A stretch of 24,012 bases of DNA from a virus (Duplodnaviria; Heunggongvirae; Uroviricota; Caudoviricetes). Of this stretch, positions 9,505-24,012 are shown one piece after another (the first letter of the stretch is position 1; every line of letters starts with the position of its first letter). The notes under the pieces are model-generated. The model was not told the origin of the DNA, made no database searches, and was given only the letters and a program-made list of their open reading frames with translations. The translations under genes and the position numbers were made by a program. The stretch is from IMG/VR virus record IMGVR_UViG_2675903504_000004, positions 1 to 24,012 of that record; one strand, written 5' to 3'.

Positions 9505-11271
9505 ATGAACACCACACTGACACCCGCAGATCTCGATCCCCGTCGGCAGGCCATGCTGCTGTACTTTCAGGGATACCGCGTAGCCCGCATTGCTGAAATG
9601 CTGGGCGAGAAAGTTGCAACCGTTCACAGCTGGAAAAAACGCGACAAGTGGGGTGACTATGGGCCACTGGATCAGATGCAGCTCACCACCGCCGCACGCT
9701 ACTGCCAGCTCATTATGAAGGAGCACAAAGAAGGGAAAGATTTCAAAGAGATTGACCTGCTGGCGCGCCAGTCTGAGCGCCACGCGCGGATCGGCAAGTT
9801 TAACAATGGCGGCAACGAAGCCGACTTAAACCCTAACGTCGCCAACCGCAACAAAGGCCCGCGCCGTCAGCCGGAAAAAAATGTCTTCACCGATGAACAG
9901 ATTGAGAAGCTGGAAGAAATCTTCCATTCCTCCATGTTCAACTACCAGCGCCACTGGTGGGAAGCCGGAAAAACCAACCGCATCCGCAACCTGCTGAAGT
10001 CACGCCAGATCGGCGCGACCTTTTACTTTGCCCGTGAAGCCCTGATTGACGCTCTGCTTACCGGACGTAACCAGATTTTCCTTTCCGCCAGCAAGGCACA
10101 GGCCCACGTCTTTAAGCAGTACATCATCGACTTCGCCAAAGAAGTGGAAGTGGAGCTGAAAGGCGATCCGATGGTGCTTCCCAACGGGGCCACACTGTAT
10201 TTCCTCGGCACCAATGCCCGCACGGCCCAGAGTTACCACGGCAACCTGTATCTGGATGAATATTTCTGGATACCGAAATTCCAGGAGCTGCGCAAAGTGG
10301 CTTCCGGTATGGCTATTCACAAAAAATGGCGACAAACCTATTTTTCCACGCCATCCAGCCTGACACACAGTGCTTATCCGTTCTGGTCCGGTGCGCTATT
10401 CAACCGTGGGCGCAATAAAGCCGACAAGGTGGACATCGACCTGTCCCACAGCAATCTGGCTCCAGGCCTGCTGTGTGCAGACGGGCAATACCGCCAGATA
10501 GTCACCGTGGAAGATGCGGTGCGCGGCGGCTGTAACCTGTTCGACCTTGACCAGTTGCGCATGGAATACAGCCCGGACGAATACCAGAACCTGCTGATGT
10601 GTGAATTCGTGGACGATCTCGCGTCCGTGTTCCCGCTCAGCGAGCTGCAGGCGTGCATGGTGGACAGCTGGGAAGTCTGGACCGACTTTCATGCACTGGC
10701 CCTGCGCCCGTTTGGCTGGCGCGAAGTGTGGATCGGTTATGACCCGGCAAAAGGTACGCAAAACGGCGACAGCGCCGGGTGCGTGGTGGTGGCTCCGCCA
10801 GCCGTGCCGGGCGGTAAGTTCCGCATTCTTGAGCGTCACCAGTGGCGCGGGATGGACTTCCGTGCCCAGGCGGACGCCATCAAAAAACTGACTGAACAGT
10901 ACAACGTGACCTATATCGGTATCGACTCGACAGGTGTCGGTCACGGGGTTTATGAGAACGTAAAAGCGTTCTTTCCTGCCGTCCGGGAGTTTGTCTACAA
11001 CCCCAACGTTAAAAACGCCCTGGTACTCAAGGCCTACGACATTATCAGCCACCGCCGTCTGGAGTTTGACGCCGGACACACCGACATTGCGCAGTCATTC
11101 ATGGCAATCCGTCGCGCAACCACCGCCAGTGGCAACCGCCCGACCTATGAAGCCAGCCGCAGCGAAGAAGCCAGCCACGCCGATCTGGCCTGGGCAACGA
11201 TGCACGCACTGTTTAACGAACCGCTGCAGGGCGAGTCCGCCAATACCAGCAATATTGTGGAGATTTTTTGA
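9505..11271 (+). CDS. P: Terminase large (ATPase) subunit gpP
   Basis: 588-aa protein of P2 gpP size, in the expected divergent position and co-oriented with Q; assigned by length, synteny and overall resemblance to P2 gpP. Confidence 0.95.
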   Translation: MNTTLTPADLDPRRQAMLLYFQGYRVARIAEMLGEKVATVHSWKKRDKWGDYGPLDQMQLTTAARYCQLIMKEHKEGKDFKEIDLLARQSERHARIGKFNNGGNEADLNPNVANRNKGPRRQPEKNVFTDEQIEKLEEIFHSSMFNYQRHWWEAGKTNRIRNLLKSRQIGATFYFAREALIDALLTGRNQIFLSASKAQAHVFKQYIIDFAKEVEVELKGDPMVLPNGATLYFLGTNARTAQSYHGNLYLDEYFWIPKFQELRKVASGMAIHKKWRQTYFSTPSSLTHSAYPFWSGALFNRGRNKADKVDIDLSHSNLAPGLLCADGQYRQIVTVEDAVRGGCNLFDLDQLRMEYSPDEYQNLLMCEFVDDLASVFPLSELQACMVDSWEVWTDFHALALRPFGWREVWIGYDPAKGTQNGDSAGCVVVAPPAVPGGKFRILERHQWRGMDFRAQADAIKKLTEQYNVTYIGIDSTGVGHGVYENVKAFFPAVREFVYNPNVKNALVLKAYDIISHRRLEFDAGHTDIAQSFMAIRRATTASGNRPTYEASRSEEASHADLAWATMHALFNEPLQGESANTSNIVEIF

Positions 11272-12302
11272 TGGGAAAGAGTAAGAAAAACCGCACTGCG
11301 GCGACGAATCAGATCCAGCATAAAAACCAAACTTCAGCCGAAGCATTCAGCTTCGGCGATCCCGTTCCTGTTCTGGACCGCCGAGAATTACTGGACTATG
11401 TGGAATGCGTACAGATGGACCGTTGGTATGAGCCGCCCGTCAGCTTTGACGGACTGGCGCGCACCTTCCGCGCTGCCGTGCATCACAGTTCCCCGATTGC
11501 AGTAAAGTGCAACATTCTGACCAGTACCTATATCCCTCATCCTTTGCTCAGCCAGCAGGCTTTTTCGCGTTTTGTGCAGGACTATCTGGTATTTGGCAAC
11601 GCCTATCTGGAGAAACGCACGAACCGCTTCGGTGAAGTGATCGCCCTTGAACCTGCGCTGGCAAAATACACCCGACGCGGATTAGACCTGGATACCTACT
11701 GGTTTGTGCAATACGGTATGACAACCCAGCCGTATCAGTTCACGAAAGGCAGCATTTTTCATCTGATGGAACCGGATATTAATCAGGAGATCTACGGTCT
11801 GCCCGGCTATCTTTCTGCCATTCCGTCAGCCCTGCTCAACGAGTCCGCCACGCTGTTCCGTCGCAAGTATTACATTAACGGCAGTCATGCGGGCTTTATC
11901 ATGTACATGACCGATGCCGCGCAAAACCAGGAGGATGTGAACAACCTCCGCAATGCGATGAAAAGCGCCAAAGGTCCAGGCAACTTCCGCAACCTGTTTA
12001 TGTACTCGCCTAACGGCAAAAAGGACGGGCTTCAGATCATCCCATTGTCAGAAGTCGCGGCGAAGGATGAATTTCTTAATATCAAGAACGTGAGTCGGGA
12101 TGACATGATGGCAGCGCACCGCGTGCCGCCTCAGATGATGGGGATTATGCCTAATAATGTTGGGGGGTTTGGGGATGTGGAGAAGGCTAGTCGTGTTTTT
12201 GTTCGGAACGAGCTGATGCCTCTACAAAAAAGATTCCAAGAAGTAAATGAATACTTTGACGGGAACATAATCAGCTTTGAAGAATACAAACTGACCATCT
12301 AA
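11271..12302 (+). CDS. Q: Portal protein gpQ
   Basis: 343-aa protein; ATG at 11271 overlaps the P stop (TGATG); the ORF-track start 11268 is TTG. Size and position match P2 gpQ. Confidence 0.95.
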   Translation: MGKSKKNRTAATNQIQHKNQTSAEAFSFGDPVPVLDRRELLDYVECVQMDRWYEPPVSFDGLARTFRAAVHHSSPIAVKCNILTSTYIPHPLLSQQAFSRFVQDYLVFGNAYLEKRTNRFGEVIALEPALAKYTRRGLDLDTYWFVQYGMTTQPYQFTKGSIFHLMEPDINQEIYGLPGYLSAIPSALLNESATLFRRKYYINGSHAGFIMYMTDAAQNQEDVNNLRNAMKSAKGPGNFRNLFMYSPNGKKDGLQIIPLSEVAAKDEFLNIKNVSRDDMMAAHRVPPQMMGIMPNNVGGFGDVEKASRVFVRNELMPLQKRFQEVNEYFDGNIISFEEYKLTI

Positions 12303-12317
12303 AATAAATAACAAAAA

Positions 12318-12337
12318 AGAGGGTTCCCCCTCTTTTA
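12318..12337. terminator. Bidirectional rho-independent terminator between convergent Q and the cargo ORF
   Basis: AGAGGG-TTCC-CCCTCT hairpin flanked by an A-run upstream and a T-run downstream, in the 39-bp gap between the Q stop and the stop of the minus-strand ORF. Confidence 0.6.
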
Positions 12338-12341
12338 TATA

Positions 12342-14108
12342 TTAATTATTATCGTATAACTCCTGAATTTTTGCTGGATTAGCAAAAAACCTTGCAGGAT
12401 AAGCATTTGGATAATTATCTTCGATATAATTTTCTGTCCTAGCTATTAATGCTGCTAAATTAGCAGTGATTTGTGCTGAATCAGGAGCAAGCTGAATGGT
12501 ACTATTCTGTAAATCTGACACCATATTCAACAGCACTGAAGCATAATATCTATTACCATGAGTTATTATTAAATGACGGCGACTATGCGTTGATTTATCT
12601 GTAGCTGCTAAAGTTGAGCTAATAGCACGTTCTATCACACGAAAATGGTTAACAGCATTTATTAACTTGATACCACTTAATCGCGGATTGAAAATTGTTC
12701 TATATAATGACCCTTCAAAATTTTCAAAAAACCTACCACGATTAGATTTTAAAGTTGCAACTATAGTATTATTTTTACTTAAGCAAGCTAGAGCATTCAA
12801 AGCCTCATCGAGATCAATTACCTTGGCGTTAGACTGTAAATAATCCTCATCGGTTCGCAATAATTGGTATTGATACCCTTCAAGCACAAGCTCTCTCGCC
12901 AGTCTATGCTGATCGGGTTGTTGTGAAGCAAAATCTCTTCCTAAAACTCTATTCTGGAAATTATTAGCTCTGGTTATTGCATTGGCATTGAGATCATTTA
13001 CATCATTATTAATTTCAATAAAACGAACAGGGACTTTAACTTGATAAATTCTATCGCCTAGCACATCCATAACACTGCCTAAACTACTCACAGTTTGCGC
13101 GCCGTTGATCACACTCACATCTTTAAAATCGAAAACCCCTCTTTCAGTGCCTGCAGCTGCGTTTCTTCTGTGAGGAATTAACTCGTTCACTAGTAACGTA
13201 ATACCGTTATTGTAAAACCAAAACATTTCTGGATTATCAATTGCAGTTTTTTTTATTTCTTCGTTAACATCTGTCTTACCAAGCATATTTCTTATGTTTT
13301 TCGTAAAAAGGCGGGTTCCATATTGTTTCCACCAATTCCCAACCTGGTCCCCAGCTAAAGTTCCATAAAATGCTCTGTAAGGTTCATTAATAAACCCATA
13401 GCGTTCAACTTCTACGCCATCCAAATCAATTTGACCTCTTGAGCCAGTCTGCAACCAATGGACTAAATCCTCTGATGAAATCAAATGAACTTGAAACCCC
13501 CATTCTTCTTTCGGTGATTCTGTCGGGGTAAACGACGCTTCATTTAATTCACGTTGCCACTCTTGCATATCACGTAAAATATCTTCTGAGGCACCTTTTT
13601 TCCCTGTGTGAGTCATAGCGAAGATAAATTTATAATCAAATGAATTAAGAGCTGCGCTTATATCTGAACTCTTATCTTGAAGAATCTGGTCAAAAAGTTC
13701 ATATCGTTCATTCTGAAGTTTTTCACAAGCATCCTTGAAGCACACAAAATCAGGTCTGCTCCAAGTACCATTTCCAGCCTGATTAAATTTGGACTGAACG
13801 ACTACAACAATTTTTTCACTATGATTTATGACTATGCCATCAATGCCTCCATCCTCAGAACTGTCGCATACAGACTCACCTGCATGCTTTTCATCAACAC
13901 CACCAAGTTGATACATCGTAAACGCCGCCAGAGCCCTACTTGCCATTTTAATATTGTAATCTTGTTGACTGGGTTGGCACTCTCGCTTATGAACATAGTC
14001 TTCAAACCTTTCTCTCAAAACACTACCAAGCCTTAGAGCTATAACTTGCGCCGTCGCCGCTGCAGCTACAGCGTTATCCTCAACTCGGAGATCTACAACG
14101 AATGCCAT
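12342..14108 (-). CDS. Cargo protein, 588 aa: N-terminal PD-(D/E)xK-like nuclease motif plus large C-terminal region with AIPR-like (abortive infection) features; candidate anti-phage defence gene
   Basis: AT-rich ORF between portal Q and the cos-like site. Start at ATG 14108 (AAGGA at about 7 nt; ORF-track start 14135 is TTG). N-terminal ...EDGGIDGIVINHSEKIVVVVQSKF... fits a D...(E/Q)xK nuclease signature. Central ...VSVINGAQTVSSLG... is recalled as AIPR-family-like (from memory, unverified). No counterpart in the P2 core gene set. Confidence 0.55.
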   Translation of the reverse strand: MAFVVDLRVEDNAVAAAATAQVIALRLGSVLRERFEDYVHKRECQPSQQDYNIKMASRALAAFTMYQLGGVDEKHAGESVCDSSEDGGIDGIVINHSEKIVVVVQSKFNQAGNGTWSRPDFVCFKDACEKLQNERYELFDQILQDKSSDISAALNSFDYKFIFAMTHTGKKGASEDILRDMQEWQRELNEASFTPTESPKEEWGFQVHLISSEDLVHWLQTGSRGQIDLDGVEVERYGFINEPYRAFYGTLAGDQVGNWWKQYGTRLFTKNIRNMLGKTDVNEEIKKTAIDNPEMFWFYNNGITLLVNELIPHRRNAAAGTERGVFDFKDVSVINGAQTVSSLGSVMDVLGDRIYQVKVPVRFIEINNDVNDLNANAITRANNFQNRVLGRDFASQQPDQHRLARELVLEGYQYQLLRTDEDYLQSNAKVIDLDEALNALACLSKNNTIVATLKSNRGRFFENFEGSLYRTIFNPRLSGIKLINAVNHFRVIERAISSTLAATDKSTHSRRHLIITHGNRYYASVLLNMVSDLQNSTIQLAPDSAQITANLAALIARTENYIEDNYPNAYPARFFANPAKIQELYDNN

Positions 14109-14289
14109 TAATTTTTCCTTATAGAATATGTACAACGTTAGCAGTGATTAAAAGGTTACTCGTTAAGCGGAAATTGTACTACAACATTCTACTAAATATG
14201 GATATATCAATGAGTAAGAACTCATCTTTGCTAACTCACATACATTGTTAAAAATACTTAGCTTCGCTGTTCACCCCGTCGCCGCGCGC

Positions 14290-14308
14290 TCGTATCCCCG
14301 CCACGCCT
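14290..14308 (-). other. Candidate cos (cohesive-end) site of the P2/186 type
   Basis: Minus strand reads GGCGTGGCGGGGATACGAG, close to the remembered P2 (GGCGAGGCGGGGAAAGCAC) and 186 cohesive-end sequences. It lies in a short GC-rich island between two AT-rich cargo genes and is oriented toward Q, as in P2. Confidence 0.5.
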
Positions 14309-14356
14309 GCCCGCTTTGTGTAGTGGTTTTCATGCACCTGCATGACATAAGCAAAA

Positions 14357-14376
14357 GCCCGCCAGCTCTGGCGGGC
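14357..14376 (-). terminator. Rho-independent terminator downstream of the HNH-domain ORF
   Basis: Perfect GC-rich inverted repeat GCCCGCCAG-CT-CTGGCGGGC, followed on the minus strand by TTTTGC. Confidence 0.55.
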
Positions 14377-14489
14377 ATCAGCAAAAACGATCCTCAAACG
14401 ATCATGCGATTTCATGCGGCATAGACATGCGTTGGCAAAAATGTACGAAATACTCAGCTTATAGGAAATGGTCTTTTTCCAACCTCCAG

Positions 14490-15209
14490 TTAGCCAAAGC
14501 AGAAACCAATATTGCAATTTGAAACTCCACAGTTGTGAAATTGATGTGGACCTACTCTTAGCTTGTGTTCGTCTCCTACAATCCGAGTCCCCTTAACCAA
14601 CATATCTAATCTTTCCACAATCAATCTTTCAGGCACATCAACTTTAATAATTAAACGAGGACCTTTCCTTTTTTCTATAATAGTTATTCTAGGACCGACA
14701 ACCTGAACATCCCAATGCCTTGCACTACAAACCCACTCATTCTTAATTAATTCAAGATTAACAATACCTTGACTATCGTAAAATTTACCCGAAATAAGAA
14801 AAGCATTATTTTCTTTTTCAATGGTTAACAATGGCTCATTTTGAAACATTATTGGTACAGTACAGGATTCAAACGTCGCACCACCAAATATTATTGTTGG
14901 ATGCCTATCAGAAAAGTCCAATATATCTGCCACATTCCCTTTTTGTAAGGCTGCAGGAGATTCCATTGCTTTAATTATTTTCTCTTTAGAGTAAAGACGT
15001 TTCGTTACTTTCGCATGGCACGTAGGACAAAGTAGTGCTATTGCATTTGGAGAGTGCTCCTTTGCATCAGCGTATGTGGGAATTACATGCTCATACTCAA
15101 CAATGGGAGAAGCACAAACAACGCAACCGAAGCCACAGCGCTGCCTTACCTCCAGTTTTACAGGTTCAGGAATTGTTCTAGATAACCCATGCTTGTTAAT
15201 AGTTGTCAT
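14490..15209 (-). CDS. HNH endonuclease-domain protein with uncharacterised ~170-aa C-terminal region; cargo gene
   Basis: 239-aa AT-rich ORF; N-terminal ...RQRCGFGCVVCASPIVEYEHVIPTYADAKEHSPNAIALLCPTCHAKV... shows the Cys pairs and His/Asn/His pattern of an HNH zinc-finger nuclease. ATG at 15209 with AAGGTAAGG upstream; own terminator downstream. Confidence 0.65.
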   Translation of the reverse strand: MTTINKHGLSRTIPEPVKLEVRQRCGFGCVVCASPIVEYEHVIPTYADAKEHSPNAIALLCPTCHAKVTKRLYSKEKIIKAMESPAALQKGNVADILDFSDRHPTIIFGGATFESCTVPIMFQNEPLLTIEKENNAFLISGKFYDSQGIVNLELIKNEWVCSARHWDVQVVGPRITIIEKRKGPRLIIKVDVPERLIVERLDMLVKGTRIVGDEHKLRVGPHQFHNCGVSNCNIGFCFG

Positions 15210-15917: not shown

Positions 15918-18332
15918 TTAATACAGGTTTCGCCACTTATCATCTTCCTGCAAACGCTGGTTCCGATAGAAGATACGCAGGCCTGCTCCTGACGGAATAC
16001 TGCCGCCGCGAAGGAGTAAATCGACCTCTTTCTCGCTGCCATCAAATCCTCTGGACTTCAGTTCATAGACGAGCTGCTGTCGCTGATGGTCTGTAATTCG
16101 CTGTTTGTAGTCTTTACGCCGTTTCGGTTTCACCAGGCGTAACCTTGCAGCCAGTTCCCGGCGCTCTTTTTTGCTCATACTGTGCAGGTAATCGTGCAAC
16201 TCCTTGTCATCCATGCGGGTAATGTCCGTCCTGGTATCCCCATCAGCTGATTTGTCTTTCCCTTGTTGGTTCAAATTTTCAGCAAGGGGACAGTTATTGC
16301 CACGAGTCCAAGGGGCGCAAGCGCCCTGGTCGGCTGCCGCCTCCTGAACGTCAACGGCCTTACGAACCATTTTCCACTTCACTGCATGAGTGCAGATCTT
16401 GCCCTCTGCAATGGGTGACCAGATGCCATAAATACGAATGCCGTGATCGCCATAGGCGGTCGGCTCTTCGTTGATTTCATAAGCGGTTCTGATCAGGTGA
16501 TATTTGCGGGGAACCAGTACGCCGCCCTGCTTCATGATGTAGGTGGCAAAACAACCAGCATCAGCAGCAGCCAGGATTGCATCAAGGCGCGGGTTATCCA
16601 GTACCGGCGCACCTGCTTTTTTGTCCCCCTGTTGCCTTGCCGCCTGACCAGCCAGCAATCGCAGTTCACGGTAAGCCTGACGCCCCGGAATGCCAAAGAA
16701 GCGGAATTGCTGAACACGATGCAGAGACGCCCAGGCATTAACGTATTCAGCATTATCACGCAGGGATTTCCCCGTTTCCTTGCTGATCTCGCCAGCCAGA
16801 CCACGCCCGTCAATGTTCTTACTGATGTATTTCGCGATGTAGCTTGTTGGCGTACCTTTGCGCGGGTTAATCAACTCAGACTTAAAGCGCGGCCCAGTGT
16901 TATTGCCCAGCTCCTCGCGGTCTTCACGGATGGCAAACTTACGCAGTAATACAGTGATGGCGCGGCGGTCTTTTTTGCGCATAAAACACAACAGGTGCCA
17001 GTGAACTGTACCGTCATGATGCGGCTCAGCCACCCGCACGCCATACCAGCGCAATCCGGCTTTGTGCATCGCCTTACGAAATGCAGCAAACATGCCGACC
17101 AGGTAATCACTACTTTGTCTTACCGTCGCATTTGTCCAGGTTGGGTTGGGCCTGCCGTTATTTAGCGTGGAATGGAAACGTGACGGACAGGTGATGGTGT
17201 AGAAAACGGCACAGTCACTGCGCATTTCTGCGATAAGCTCCAGACCTTTAACACAGGCCATCATCTCATTGCGGCGATGCGCCGGGTTGCTGCTGCTGGC
17301 GTTTACCACATCTTCCATATCCAGCGTGTCACCGTCTTCGTTCACCAGTTCATGAGAACGGAAAAACTCCAGCGACTTACGGCGCTGCTCACGTTTATGC
17401 ATCACGGCTTCATAGCTGACATAGGGAGATGCTTTTTTGCTGACCAGACAGACAGCACGCAACTGCTCTTCCCGCCATTCGCAACGCATCTTCCATAATT
17501 TCCTATGCCACCAGTCGGCGCACAGCATACGCGCCAGCGAACCCGGAATGAGTTCATAGGGCACGGGTTTACGGCGGTTTCTTTTCCGACGGAGTTGCTC
17601 AAACGCAGGCGGGATGACATCCAGTCGCAGGGTTTCTGCTGCCACCTTTTCCCATGTCTTGCGGATTTCTTCTGGCTTAACATCATCGGTGGCGTACAAA
17701 TCACCACAAGCGGCATCAAGACACATGCTCATATGCGCAGCGACAAGAGTAGACAGGCGTTTCACCTGATCCTGACTCATTTCAGGCAGGATCAGCAGGC
17801 CGTCCAGCCCTTCATGGCTTGCCATAAAGCGAAAAGAAGTGGATAGCTGACTCTCGCGTACATGCTCCAGTCGTTCCAGACATGGCTTAATCGTCTCACG
17901 CAAATAGCGGGAATAAGCCTTTGGCCTGCCCAGGCTGCTGAAGTATTCAATACGTTGCATCAGCGGCTTGCTGATATGGGAAGGCTGGGCGCTGACATCT
18001 GCCAGAATGACCATGTCTGGGTTAAAACGCTGCTGCTCATGCGCCAGCTTTGCCCGACTAATGAGCTTATCCTGCTCCATTTCGCGCTGGACAGGATCAC
18101 GGGATTCATTAAAGAAATAACGCTCCCAGACCTGATCACTCAGTGCCTCACGGCGCAGCAGTTCCTGCTCGTTATCGGCAGCGTACAGAGTGATCAGGTT
18201 TGAAAGCGCAGAAACCGGCGCAACTTCCGCCGGGTCCAGATAAGGGTTAATGGCCTTTTTCGGGCTGTTCCATGAGAACGATGCGGCAGCCTCGTTAAAG
18301 CCGCAGCAGTTGTTCATATCGGCATGGTTCAT
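15918..18332 (-). CDS. A: Replication initiation endonuclease gpA (rolling-circle initiator)
   Basis: 804-aa protein with ...[17 protein letters not shown]... and ...[13 protein letters not shown]..., which match the conserved P2 gpA motifs. Confidence 0.95.
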
Positions 18333-22791: not shown

Positions 22792-24012
22792 ATGGATATT
22801 AAAAACAAAGTCAATAAAGAAAAGTTATTTGAGAACCATTTAAACTCATTATTAAAACAAGTCATTTCCGAACCAAAATTAAACCCTCCACTTATAGTAC
22901 ATAGAGATATAATAAGTGACTTCACTGAACGTTGCGATAAGTATCTAAAAACAATAATTAAATACAAAAGCAACAATAAAGATGGGATGCCGAATTTTGA
23001 TGAATTAATCAGCAAAGTTAAGAACATTCAAAATGGAATAACATTATCACTTGAAAGTTTTTTATCAGGTGATATCAAGTCAGCATATGACCACTTTGAT
23101 AAAACATTCTCTGATAACTCAACAATCCAACACATACATCGCATCACTACTCCACTCAGTAGCATTTGCAATCATAAAAAACCATTATTTCGAGTTAGAA
23201 AAAGTGAAAATCCTCTAACGTCAAGAGATGAAATTTTCCATATTCCATTCTCCAATAGACATTTTGTTAGTGCACAAAGATATTCAGTCGCTGGCTTACC
23301 ATGTTTATATCTTGGCACTTCTGTTTATGTTTGTTGGCAGGAGATGGGAAAACCAGATTTTGACAAGCTTTTTATTTCATCATTTACTACCAGTGAAACT
23401 GAATATAAAGTCTTAAACTTTGCATCACAGCTTTTGTTACATCCCTCACCAAATTACGCCGACGAAAATAAACTAGCCGAAACAAATAGAGTAAAGGCCT
23501 CTTATCTCATTTTCTGGCCTTTAATTATTGCATGTAATTATTTAAAAAATCATCGTTCTGCAACATTCATACAAGAGTACATTATCCCTAATTTGTTGAT
23601 GCAATGGATTAGTAGAAAAACTTACTCGAAAATTGTCGGTGTAGCTTACTTCTCTACAAAAATGCCTAATTCACGATTAAGTAACCGCTCAATAAATGTT
23701 GTATTTCCACCCAAAGTTACATATGAACAAACGGTAAAACAAAATTTTTGCCCTAAACTCTCCACATTATTCGACTTTACGCCACCTATTTCGTGGCAGG
23801 TCTTAAAAACATTAGATCATTCATCAATAACAGAAAATTCAATAGAATTGATGATGTCAAAGAGATATCTTCAAAGTCAAGAAAAACTGTCTGGAATTAA
23901 AAACTTCGAAGAGGACATTGTAAAACTATACCCCTTAACTGATTTTTACAAACTCGAAAGAAGTATTGATATGCTATTTGAATATAAAAAGATAGATAAC
24001 CCCATACTATAA
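22792..24012 (+). CDS. AT-rich 406-aa protein with RES-domain-like core (candidate NAD-targeting toxin or abortive-infection effector) and novel N- and C-terminal extensions
   Basis: ORF starts 10 bp after the int stop with much lower GC than the phage backbone. Core ...RHFVSAQRYSVAGLPCLYLGTSVYVCWQEMG... fits the RES pattern R-aromatic...G.P.LY...E. No upstream Xre-type antitoxin gene. Confidence 0.55.
   Translation: MDIKNKVNKEKLFENHLNSLLKQVISEPKLNPPLIVHRDIISDFTERCDKYLKTIIKYKSNNKDGMPNFDELISKVKNIQNGITLSLESFLSGDIKSAYDHFDKTFSDNSTIQHIHRITTPLSSICNHKKPLFRVRKSENPLTSRDEIFHIPFSNRHFVSAQRYSVAGLPCLYLGTSVYVCWQEMGKPDFDKLFISSFTTSETEYKVLNFASQLLLHPSPNYADENKLAETNRVKASYLIFWPLIIACNYLKNHRSATFIQEYIIPNLLMQWISRKTYSKIVGVAYFSTKMPNSRLSNRSINVVFPPKVTYEQTVKQNFCPKLSTLFDFTPPISWQVLKTLDHSSITENSIELMMSKRYLQSQEKLSGIKNFEEDIVKLYPLTDFYKLERSIDMLFEYKKIDNPIL

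What the first reader, a model, noticed from the sequence alone, without database searches (positions are those of the whole stretch)
12342..14108. Nuclease/AIPR-like cargo gene inserted between portal Q and cos
A 588-aa AT-rich ORF sits where P2 has only a short Q-to-cos spacer, convergent with Q and separated from it by a bidirectional terminator. It has a PD-(D/E)xK-like signature (EDGGIDGIV...VVVQSK) near the N-terminus and a central NGAQT motif that I associate with AIPR abortive-infection proteins. The composition break and lack of any virion role mark it as a horizontally acquired, probably anti-phage, single-gene system in the known P2 variable region near cos.
Basis: partly seen in the sequence, partly recalled or inferred. 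Interest (0 to 1): 0.8.

Follow-up and report, generated by a model that had tools for sequence, protein, structure and literature searches.

The report
AIPR/AbiU-type defence gene beside P2 cos
A P2-like prophage of E. coli carries, between its portal gene and its DNA-packaging site, a single foreign gene for an AIPR (AbiU-type) protein with a restriction-enzyme-like nuclease domain; it is a probable anti-phage gene in a known defence hotspot, and it is already annotated and catalogued, so it is ordinary.

Summary
A 588-aa ORF (12342-14108, minus strand; GC 0.38, GC3 0.28) lies convergent with portal gene Q and is separated from it by a hairpin. It sits on the Q side of a P2/186-type cos site (14289-14307). 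P2 has 186 bp in this spacer; here there are 2005 bp.

- The protein matches Pfam AIPR (E 1.5e-31), PADLOC AbiU (5e-24) and phrog_1841 (4.5e-196).
- The motif D82, D86, D90-x14-Q105-x-K107 is invariant in 35 homologues.

The gene is variable cargo. Nine of 5426 complete E. coli genomes carry it, while about 1255 match some part of a 3.1-kb query that also included the Q end, the cos core and the HNH gene. Other P2-likes hold different genes in the slot. Homologues elsewhere are solo genes in unrelated islands.

It is not new. RefSeq calls it "AIPR family protein" (WP_061350925), and Rousset et al. 2022 list this exact protein in their table of P2 hotspot arrangements. No experiment exists for it. 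A 34%-identical AIPR from a P4 satellite showed no activity against eight phages. The family's mechanism is unsolved.

The parts
12342..14108 (-). AIPR/AbiU-type gene, 588 aa (identical to RefSeq WP_061350925, 'AIPR family protein')
   Evidence: ORF. Pfam AIPR 1.5e-31. PADLOC AbiU 5.4e-24. phrog_1841 4.5e-196 over the full length. RefSeq annotation.
13464..13991 (-). N-terminal PD-(D/E)xK nuclease-like domain (about aa 40-215), of the FokI/Mrr/MspJI type
13788..13865 (-). Putative catalytic motif: D82, D86, GGID90 ... V104-Q105-S-K107
   Evidence: All of these residues are invariant in 35 homologues of 52-88% identity. D82, D86 and D90 are also invariant in distant AIPR proteins of 22-35% identity.
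12552..13307 (-). Pfam AIPR match (aa 268-519); its first half is a ParB/sulfiredoxin-like core
13092..13106 (-). NGAQT motif (aa 335-339), at a strand-to-helix turn; the position corresponds to DGQHR/DGQQR of DndB/DUF262
   Evidence: Invariant in 35 homologues. N, G, Q and T are invariant in distant AIPRs. Strand 332-335 followed by helix 337-356 in the model. The correspondence to DGQHR/DGQQR is my own reading.
12948..12965 (-). Second conserved polar motif, NNxQNR (aa 382-387), continuing as VLGRDFASQ
   Evidence: Invariant. N383, Q385, D392 and S395 are invariant in distant AIPRs. The model has low confidence here (pLDDT < 50 at 387-395).
12345..12812 (-). C-terminal all-helical domain (aa 433-588), role unknown
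12315..12336 (.). Hairpin between the convergent Q and AIPR genes (terminator-like)
   Evidence: Scan hit on the minus strand. Folds on both strands with z about -3. Differs in sequence from P2 tQ.
14289..14307 (-). Predicted 19-nt cohesive end (cos): GGCGTGGCGGGGATACGAG
   Evidence: Lies in the conserved core 14283-14431; the linear record of phage SEN8 ends at window 14308.
11271..12302 (+). Portal gene Q (flank of the slot)
   Evidence: Pfam Phage_portal. RefSeq annotation.

Best explanation
This is a horizontally acquired, stand-alone accessory gene of a P2-like prophage. It occupies the Q-proximal side of the known cos-adjacent defence hotspot. It encodes a three-part AIPR (AbiU1-type) protein:
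- an N-terminal FokI/Mrr/MspJI-type PD-(D/E)xK nuclease domain with a D-x14-QxK site;
- a central AIPR core of ParB/sulfiredoxin-like fold carrying the invariant NGAQT and NNxQNR motifs;
- a C-terminal helical domain.

Most likely it is made in the lysogen and protects the host and prophage against other phages. The central and C-terminal modules would sense a nucleic-acid or nucleotide cue from the invader, and would then license the nuclease domain to cut DNA.

Shown here: the gene, its position, its foreign composition, family membership, nuclease fold, conserved catalytic residues, variability of the slot, and independence from neighbouring genes.

Inferred: anti-phage function, expression in the lysogen, nuclease activity, the sensor role of the AIPR core, and whether the outcome is direct restriction or abortive infection.
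For: - Family: Pfam AIPR 110.7 bits (cut-off 25). PADLOC AbiU E 5.4e-24 over 72% of the protein. phrog_1841, a 'moron' category family, 4.5e-196.
- Cargo in a hotspot: GC3 0.28 vs 0.60-0.69 in the flanking genes. 9 of 5426 genomes carry it. P2 has an empty 186-bp spacer. The same slot holds distant AIPRs, a Ymh/HEPN protein and other genes in other P2-likes. The hotspot between gpA and gpQ is documented, and AbiU is reported in P2 and P4 hotspots.
- Stand-alone: it combines with either HNH or TIR across cos. Homologues are solo genes in Synechococcus, Vibrio, Pectobacterium, Aeromonas and Pseudomonas.
- Lysogen-expressed position in another phage: directly downstream of the repressor gene in Aggregatibacter phage S1249.
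- Phenotype of the name-giving relative: lactococcal AbiU1 alone gives 10- to 100-fold protection and delays phage transcription (Dai 2001, as reviewed in PMC13064643).
Against: - There is no experiment on this protein.
- The only E. coli AIPR known to have been tested (pFR77, from a P4 hotspot, same architecture, 34% identical) is listed among systems with no activity detected on eight phages.
- The protection by AbiU1 is weak.
- No consensus sigma-70 promoter was found in the 180 bp upstream.
- Pfam Mrr_cat is below threshold.
- There is no solved structure of any relative.
Confidence: 0.7

Rival explanations
1. It is a Type IV-like restriction enzyme rather than an abortive-infection protein. 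The ParB-like/helical part would recognise modified or otherwise marked phage DNA, as DUF262 does in GmrSD, BrxU and SspE. The FokI/MspJI-type domain would then cut that DNA directly, and the cell would survive.
For: The best structural matches are cleavage domains of enzymes that cut at a distance from a recognition module, including the modification-dependent MspJI and AspBHI. The architecture of ParB-superfamily domain plus nuclease parallels GmrSD-type enzymes (literature). AIPR genes are often embedded in restriction-modification operons.
Against: AbiU1 was described as abortive infection with delayed transcription. No DNA-modification reader domain such as SRA was detected. Nothing here distinguishes this rival from the main explanation, of which it is a variant.
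Confidence: 0.2
2. The gene is silent or inactive cargo in E. coli. It would be a hitch-hiking remnant with no measurable effect under normal conditions, for example because it is silenced in an AT-rich region.
For: A related P4 AIPR had no detectable activity. No consensus promoter was found upstream. The gene is rare, at 9 of 5426 genomes. H-NS silencing of AT-rich immunity loci is reported (abstract of 10.64898/2026.09.05.749240).
Against: The reading frame is intact and at least 99.8% identical in all 9 genomes. Full-length homologues with invariant catalytic and AIPR motifs span Enterobacterales, Vibrio, Pseudomonas and cyanobacteria, which argues for selection on function.
Confidence: 0.1
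3. It is not a defence gene. It would be a DndB-like DNA-binding regulator, or an accessory factor for P2 DNA packaging or replication, placed next to cos.
For: DndB, a regulator, shares the ParB-type domain with AIPR according to Makarova 2012/2013. The gene lies immediately beside cos and the packaging genes.
Against: The gene is absent from P2 and from more than 99% of P2-like prophages. Its composition is foreign. Homologues occur outside phages in unrelated islands. It has a conserved nuclease active site. There are no dnd genes nearby.
Confidence: 0.04

Closest known systems
AbiU1 (AbiUi) of Lactococcus lactis pND001, the prototype of Pfam AIPR / PADLOC and DefenseFinder 'AbiU'
   Same: Homologous over most of the length (PADLOC AbiU profile positions 125-507 of 537, E 5.4e-24). 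A single protein is sufficient. An AlphaFold model of AbiU1 also resembles FokI. Both are carried on a mobile element.
   Different: The host phylum differs, and the carrier is a plasmid rather than a P2-like prophage. No AbiU2 (HEPN) gene lies next to the gene here. The N-terminal 133 residues are not covered by the AbiU profile match. The phenotype of the E. coli protein is untested.
AIPR genes already catalogued in P2 and P4 hotspots of E. coli (Rousset et al. 2022), including the tested P4 AIPR pFR77
   Same: This exact protein, WP_061350925, is listed in their table of P2 hotspot arrangements. pFR77 has the same architecture and the same motifs (DDNGIDA...VQSK, NNGIT, NGAQT, NNRQNR).
   Different: pFR77 is only 34% identical and comes from a P4 satellite. 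It showed no activity on their eight phages. The protein in this window was not cloned or tested.
AIPR family proteins in the same Q-cos slot of Salmonella phage RE-2010 and Klebsiella Kapieceevirus prophages
   Same: Same slot, same orientation convergent with the portal gene, same Pfam family. The N-terminal aspartates and the NNG..T / NGxQT motifs are conserved.
   Different: Only 22-26% identity. The Klebsiella protein has QCY in place of QxK. These look like independent acquisitions rather than alleles.
[not shown]
   Same: Shares the AIPR core (NCBIfam MzaE E 2.2e-14; PADLOC MzaE 6.6e-13; aa 251-402 only).
   Different: Scores 52.9 bits against an equivalog cut-off of 1050. No MzaA-D genes are nearby. 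The gene here is a solo gene.
GmrSD / BrxU / SspE (DUF262 ParB-like NTPase fused to a DUF1524 HNH-type nuclease)
   Same: Same logic by analogy: one polypeptide joins a ParB-superfamily module to a DNA nuclease, and it serves phage defence (literature).
   Different: No sequence match to DUF262 or DUF1524. The nuclease is PD-(D/E)xK and N-terminal rather than His-Me and C-terminal. The motif is NGAQT, not DGQQR. NTPase activity is unknown.
old and tin of phage P2
   Same: Accessory exclusion genes in the same cos-proximal hotspot between A and Q.
   Different: Unrelated proteins. They lie on the A side of cos, whereas this gene lies on the Q side.

Membership tests
Pfam AIPR (PF10592) | Profile match above the curated gathering score | tested here: met
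   110.7 bits against a cut-off of 25; E 1.5e-31; aa 268-519 on profile positions 1-256 of 308. All 35 homologues also match.
AbiU (PADLOC / DefenseFinder single-gene system) | Match to the AbiU profile over most of its length | tested here: met
   E 5.4e-24; profile positions 125-507 of 537; protein aa 134-554. PADLOC's own coverage and E-value cut-offs could not be read here.
AbiU (PADLOC / DefenseFinder single-gene system) | Confers phage resistance with delayed phage transcription, as AbiU1 does | not testable with these tools
   Needs a phage challenge. Only literature on the lactococcal protein is available.
PD-(D/E)xK nucleases (FokI / Mrr / MspJI type) | Alpha-beta-beta-beta-alpha-beta core fold | tested here: met
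   [not shown]
PD-(D/E)xK nucleases (FokI / Mrr / MspJI type) | Catalytic D ... (D/E/Q)xK residues conserved | tested here: met
   D90-x14-Q105-S-K107, plus D82 and D86, invariant in 35 sequences. That the QxK variant is the one found in Mrr and MspJI is my own knowledge.
PD-(D/E)xK nucleases (FokI / Mrr / MspJI type) | Sequence-profile membership (Pfam Mrr_cat gathering score) | tested here: not met
   13.1 bits against a cut-off of 21; E 0.11; only the motif region aa 81-110 aligns. 3 of 35 homologues reach E <= 1.
PD-(D/E)xK nucleases (FokI / Mrr / MspJI type) | Metal-dependent DNA cleavage | not testable with these tools
   Needs biochemistry.
ParB / sulfiredoxin fold (ParBc, DUF262, DndB) | Fold similarity of the AIPR core | tested here: inconclusive
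   [not shown]
ParB / sulfiredoxin fold (ParBc, DUF262, DndB) | Phosphate-binding G-x-x-R motif (GERR / DGQHR / DGQQR) | tested here: not met
   The corresponding motif is an invariant I-N-G-A-Q-T with no arginine. There is no Pfam hit to ParBc, DUF262 or DndB at E <= 1 in 35 members.
MzaE (Mza system) | NCBIfam equivalog cut-off and MzaA-D neighbours | tested here: not met
   52.9 bits against 1050. The neighbours are Q, cos and an HNH gene.
HEPN RNase (once suggested for AIPR proteins, Makarova 2012) | HEPN helical fold with a conserved Rx4-6H motif | tested here: not met
   [not shown]
Cargo of the P2 cos-proximal defence hotspot (Rousset 2022) | Located between gpA and gpQ next to cos, with variable occupancy among P2-like phages | tested here: met
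   Position. Variability. The exact protein is listed in their table of P2 hotspot arrangements.

The most novel reading that the evidence does not exclude
AIPR proteins could be a mechanistically undescribed class of single-chain restriction or abortive nucleases. In this reading, a degenerate ParB/sulfiredoxin-type module (NGAQT in place of DGQHR, plus the NNxQNR..GRD loop) acts as a nucleotide- or DNA-gated switch, or as a clamp, that positions a FokI/MspJI-type cleavage domain. No relative has a solved structure and no mechanism is published for the family, so this well-behaved 588-aa E. coli member would be a convenient model for solving it.
Probability: 0.25. Interest if true: 0.55.

Novelty: already known. 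Interest (0 to 1): 0.22.

Why it matters
The finding adds little as a discovery. The hotspot, the family and this very protein are already in public annotation and in a published hotspot catalogue. Its residual value is practical. The AIPR/AbiU family is widespread and often linked to restriction-modification systems, yet it has no solved structure and no known mechanism. This member is a compact, stand-alone E. coli gene with a clear candidate active site (D90, Q105, K107) and clear candidate sensor motifs (NGAQT, NNxQNR) that could be mutated. The locus also shows that the P2 hotspot has two independently exchangeable slots, one on each side of cos.

Tried and rejected
1. Exact or near-exact search for the P2 cos sequence, allowing up to 3 mismatches, found nothing. 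cos was then located by conservation and by record ends; it differs from P2 at 5 of 19 positions.

2. A profile search of the solved-structure sequences returned no relative; the one hit was noise at E 1.4.

3. Foldseek of the whole model against the PDB gave nothing significant. FokI and sulfiredoxin appeared only below threshold.

5. The HEPN idea for the C-terminal domain (R511-x5-H517) was considered and not supported.

6. MzaE membership was rejected.

7. The HNH gene as a functional partner was rejected, because the two genes occur independently and lie on opposite sides of cos.

8. Upx, said to be phylogenetically near AbiU-1, did not appear in any sequence or fold search. It was not pursued as a relative.

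9. A literature search on the bare word 'AIPR' returned almost only unrelated acronyms. Vassallo 2022 does not mention AIPR or AbiU.

10. No consensus promoter was found for the gene.

Full report
**1. What is in the sequence**

The window is a P2-like prophage of E. coli. The relevant genes are:
- terminase P (9505-11271, +);
- portal Q (11271-12302, +);
- replication gene A (15918-18332, -);
- Dam methylase, CI-type repressor and integrase further on.

The flagged ORF runs on the minus strand from an ATG at 14108 to a TAA at 12342-12344, giving 588 aa. AAGGA lies 8 nt upstream of the ATG, and RefSeq uses the same start.

The ORF is compositionally foreign. Its GC is 0.38 and GC3 0.28, against 0.56/0.69 for P and 0.50/0.60 for Q.

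It is convergent with Q. A 9-bp-stem hairpin at 12315-12336 lies between an A-run and a T-run. It folds significantly better than shuffled sequence on both strands (z -3.3 and -3.0). The simple terminator rule accepts it only on the minus strand. Its sequence differs from P2's own tQ terminator, so it arrived with the cassette.

**2. Where cos is**

A search for the P2 cohesive end allowing three mismatches found nothing. However, the minus strand of 14289-14307 reads GGCGTGGCGGGGATACGAG, which has 5 mismatches to P2 cosL.

This sequence sits in a 150-bp core (14283-14431) conserved at 76-96% in 84 P2-like phage records. The linear record of Salmonella phage SEN8 ends at window position 14308.

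In P2 itself that spacer is 186 bp and holds only tQ. Here it is 2005 bp.

**3. What the protein is**

- Pfam AIPR (PF10592) matches aa 268-519 with 110.7 bits against a cut-off of 25.
- PADLOC AbiU matches aa 134-554 at E 5.4e-24.
- PHROG 1841 ("Abi alpha-like abortive infection mechanism", category moron) matches aa 26-588 at 4.5e-196.
- NCBIfam and PADLOC MzaE match only the AIPR core, far below the equivalog cut-off (52.9 vs 1050 bits).

A search of 5.8 billion proteins found 299 relatives. These are full-length proteins of about 590 aa from Enterobacterales, Aeromonas, Vibrio, Pseudomonas, Shewanella and cyanobacteria, and sources that name them call them AIPR family proteins.

In an alignment of 35 relatives (52-88% identity), the invariant residues include:
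- D82, D86, G87-G88-I89-D90, V104, Q105 and K107;
- N300-N301-G302;
- I334-N-G-A-Q-T339;
- N382-N383, Q385-N386-R387, and G390-R391-D392.

**4. Fold**

An AlphaFold2 model built on that alignment has mean pLDDT 82.8.

*AIPR core.* Evidence for a ParB/sulfiredoxin fold is moderate:
- Foldseek Srx probability 0.33.

Makarova et al. [quoted passage not shown] The NGAQT motif sits at a strand-to-helix turn. In my reading this is where DndB has DGQHR and DUF262 has DGQQR, but the arginine is missing.

*C-terminal 155 residues.* They form a confident helical domain without informative matches. An R-x5-H string there made me consider HEPN, but it is not conserved across the wider family and nothing else supports it.

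No relative has a solved structure.

**5. Cargo, not core**

- Only 9 of 5426 complete E. coli genomes carry this allele, all at 99.8% identity or more.
- About 1255 genomes match some part of a 3.1-kb query that also included the Q end, the cos core and the HNH gene.
- Seven of the nine share the cassette only up to the cos core (window 12200-14430). Beyond it they carry something else, for example a TIR gene in strain ZYS9073. Conversely, the HNH gene of this window (14490-15209) occurs in many genomes without the AIPR gene. The two sides of cos are therefore independently exchangeable slots, and the AIPR gene has no fixed partner.
- In other P2-like phages the same Q-adjacent slot, in the same convergent orientation, holds a 22%-identical AIPR (Salmonella RE-2010), a 26%-identical AIPR (Klebsiella prophages), a Hypoth_Ymh protein (vB_EcoM-813R9) or another gene.
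- Close and distant homologues outside P2 are solo genes in unrelated places. These are a Pectobacterium island, a single-gene insertion after the trp operon in Aeromonas, an IS66-flanked spot in Pseudomonas, integrase islands in Vibrio, and a transposon-rich region in Synechococcus.
- In Aggregatibacter phage S1249 the 35%-identical homologue lies directly downstream of a repressor gene. In my own judgement, that is a position typical of lysogen-expressed exclusion genes.

**6. How it probably works**

The best-supported reading is a stand-alone, prophage-borne defence protein. The FokI/MspJI-type domain is the effector that cuts DNA. The AIPR core and helical domain recognise a signal from the invader and license cleavage.

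Everything up to [quoted passage not shown] is shown here. Activity, trigger, expression and outcome (restriction or abortive infection) are inferred.

The only phenotypes on record for the family are:
- lactococcal AbiU1, which gives 10- to 100-fold protection and delayed phage transcription, and is sufficient on its own;
- a negative result for a P4-hotspot AIPR, pFR77. It is 34% identical over aa 26-420, has the same motifs, and is listed among "additional tested systems" without detected activity on eight phages.

**7. Comparison with what is known, and novelty**

The region between gpA and gpQ next to cos is an established defence hotspot of P2-like phages, with 1650 arrangements in E. 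coli (Rousset et al. 2022; Vassallo et al. 2022). AbiU is reported in both P2 and P4 hotspots.

RefSeq names this protein "AIPR family protein" (WP_061350925). [quoted passage not shown]

What remains open is the mechanism of the whole AIPR family, for which this gene would be a convenient model.

**8. Verdict**

Novelty is "already known". Interest is low (0.22). There is a modest chance (about 0.25) that working out the mechanism would reveal a new kind of ParB-gated nuclease.

Noticed in passing
window 14490-15209 (-): A 239-aa HNH endonuclease gene (Pfam HNH 2.4e-5; phrog_6544, unknown function, 6e-111). It is as AT-rich as the AIPR gene (GC 0.38, GC3 0.28). It sits in the classical old/tin slot on the A side of cos. 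It occurs in many E. coli genomes without the AIPR gene, so it is a separate cassette. Only its first ~80 residues match HNH profiles; the rest is unassigned. It may be a defence candidate in its own right.
   Followed up: partly
window 22792-24012 (+), runs off the window end: An ORF of at least 406 aa directly after the integrase gene, in the most AT-rich part of the window (GC 0.31-0.35). It has no Pfam or PADLOC hit; it matches phrog_7835 (unknown function) at 1e-145. It looks like a further cargo gene at the int end of the prophage.
   Followed up: partly
window 14248-14517 (-): RefSeq annotates an 89-aa 'hypothetical protein' here (WP_072295564). It runs straight across the conserved cos core and overlaps the HNH gene end, so it is probably a spurious gene call.
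   Followed up: no
window 14283-14431: The two cargo slots meet at a 150-bp conserved cos core. Recombination breakpoints in E. coli genomes fall at about 14270-14283 on one side and about 14430 on the other. This fits cassette exchange by homologous recombination through cos and the flanking Q or DinI genes. A strong GC-rich terminator-like hairpin (14357-14376, minus strand) lies inside this core.
   Followed up: partly
L014:2980-4677 (Aggregatibacter phage S1249): The closest phage-borne homologue in the phage collection (35% identity) is not in a P2-like phage. It lies directly downstream of a repressor gene in a lambdoid-type immunity region, which suggests the family is repeatedly recruited as a lysogen-expressed gene.
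   Followed up: no
L013:2384-4126 (Klebsiella phage ST11-OXA48phi15.3): The AIPR protein in the same slot of the Klebsiella P2-like phages keeps the N-terminal aspartates but has QCY where the others have QxK. Its nuclease site may be altered or inactive.
   Followed up: no
L011:5001-6767 (Aeromonas veronii): A 74%-identical homologue sits as an apparent single-gene insertion between the trp operon and ydjM, with about 1 kb of non-coding DNA upstream. This is a clean example of the gene moving on its own.
   Followed up: no
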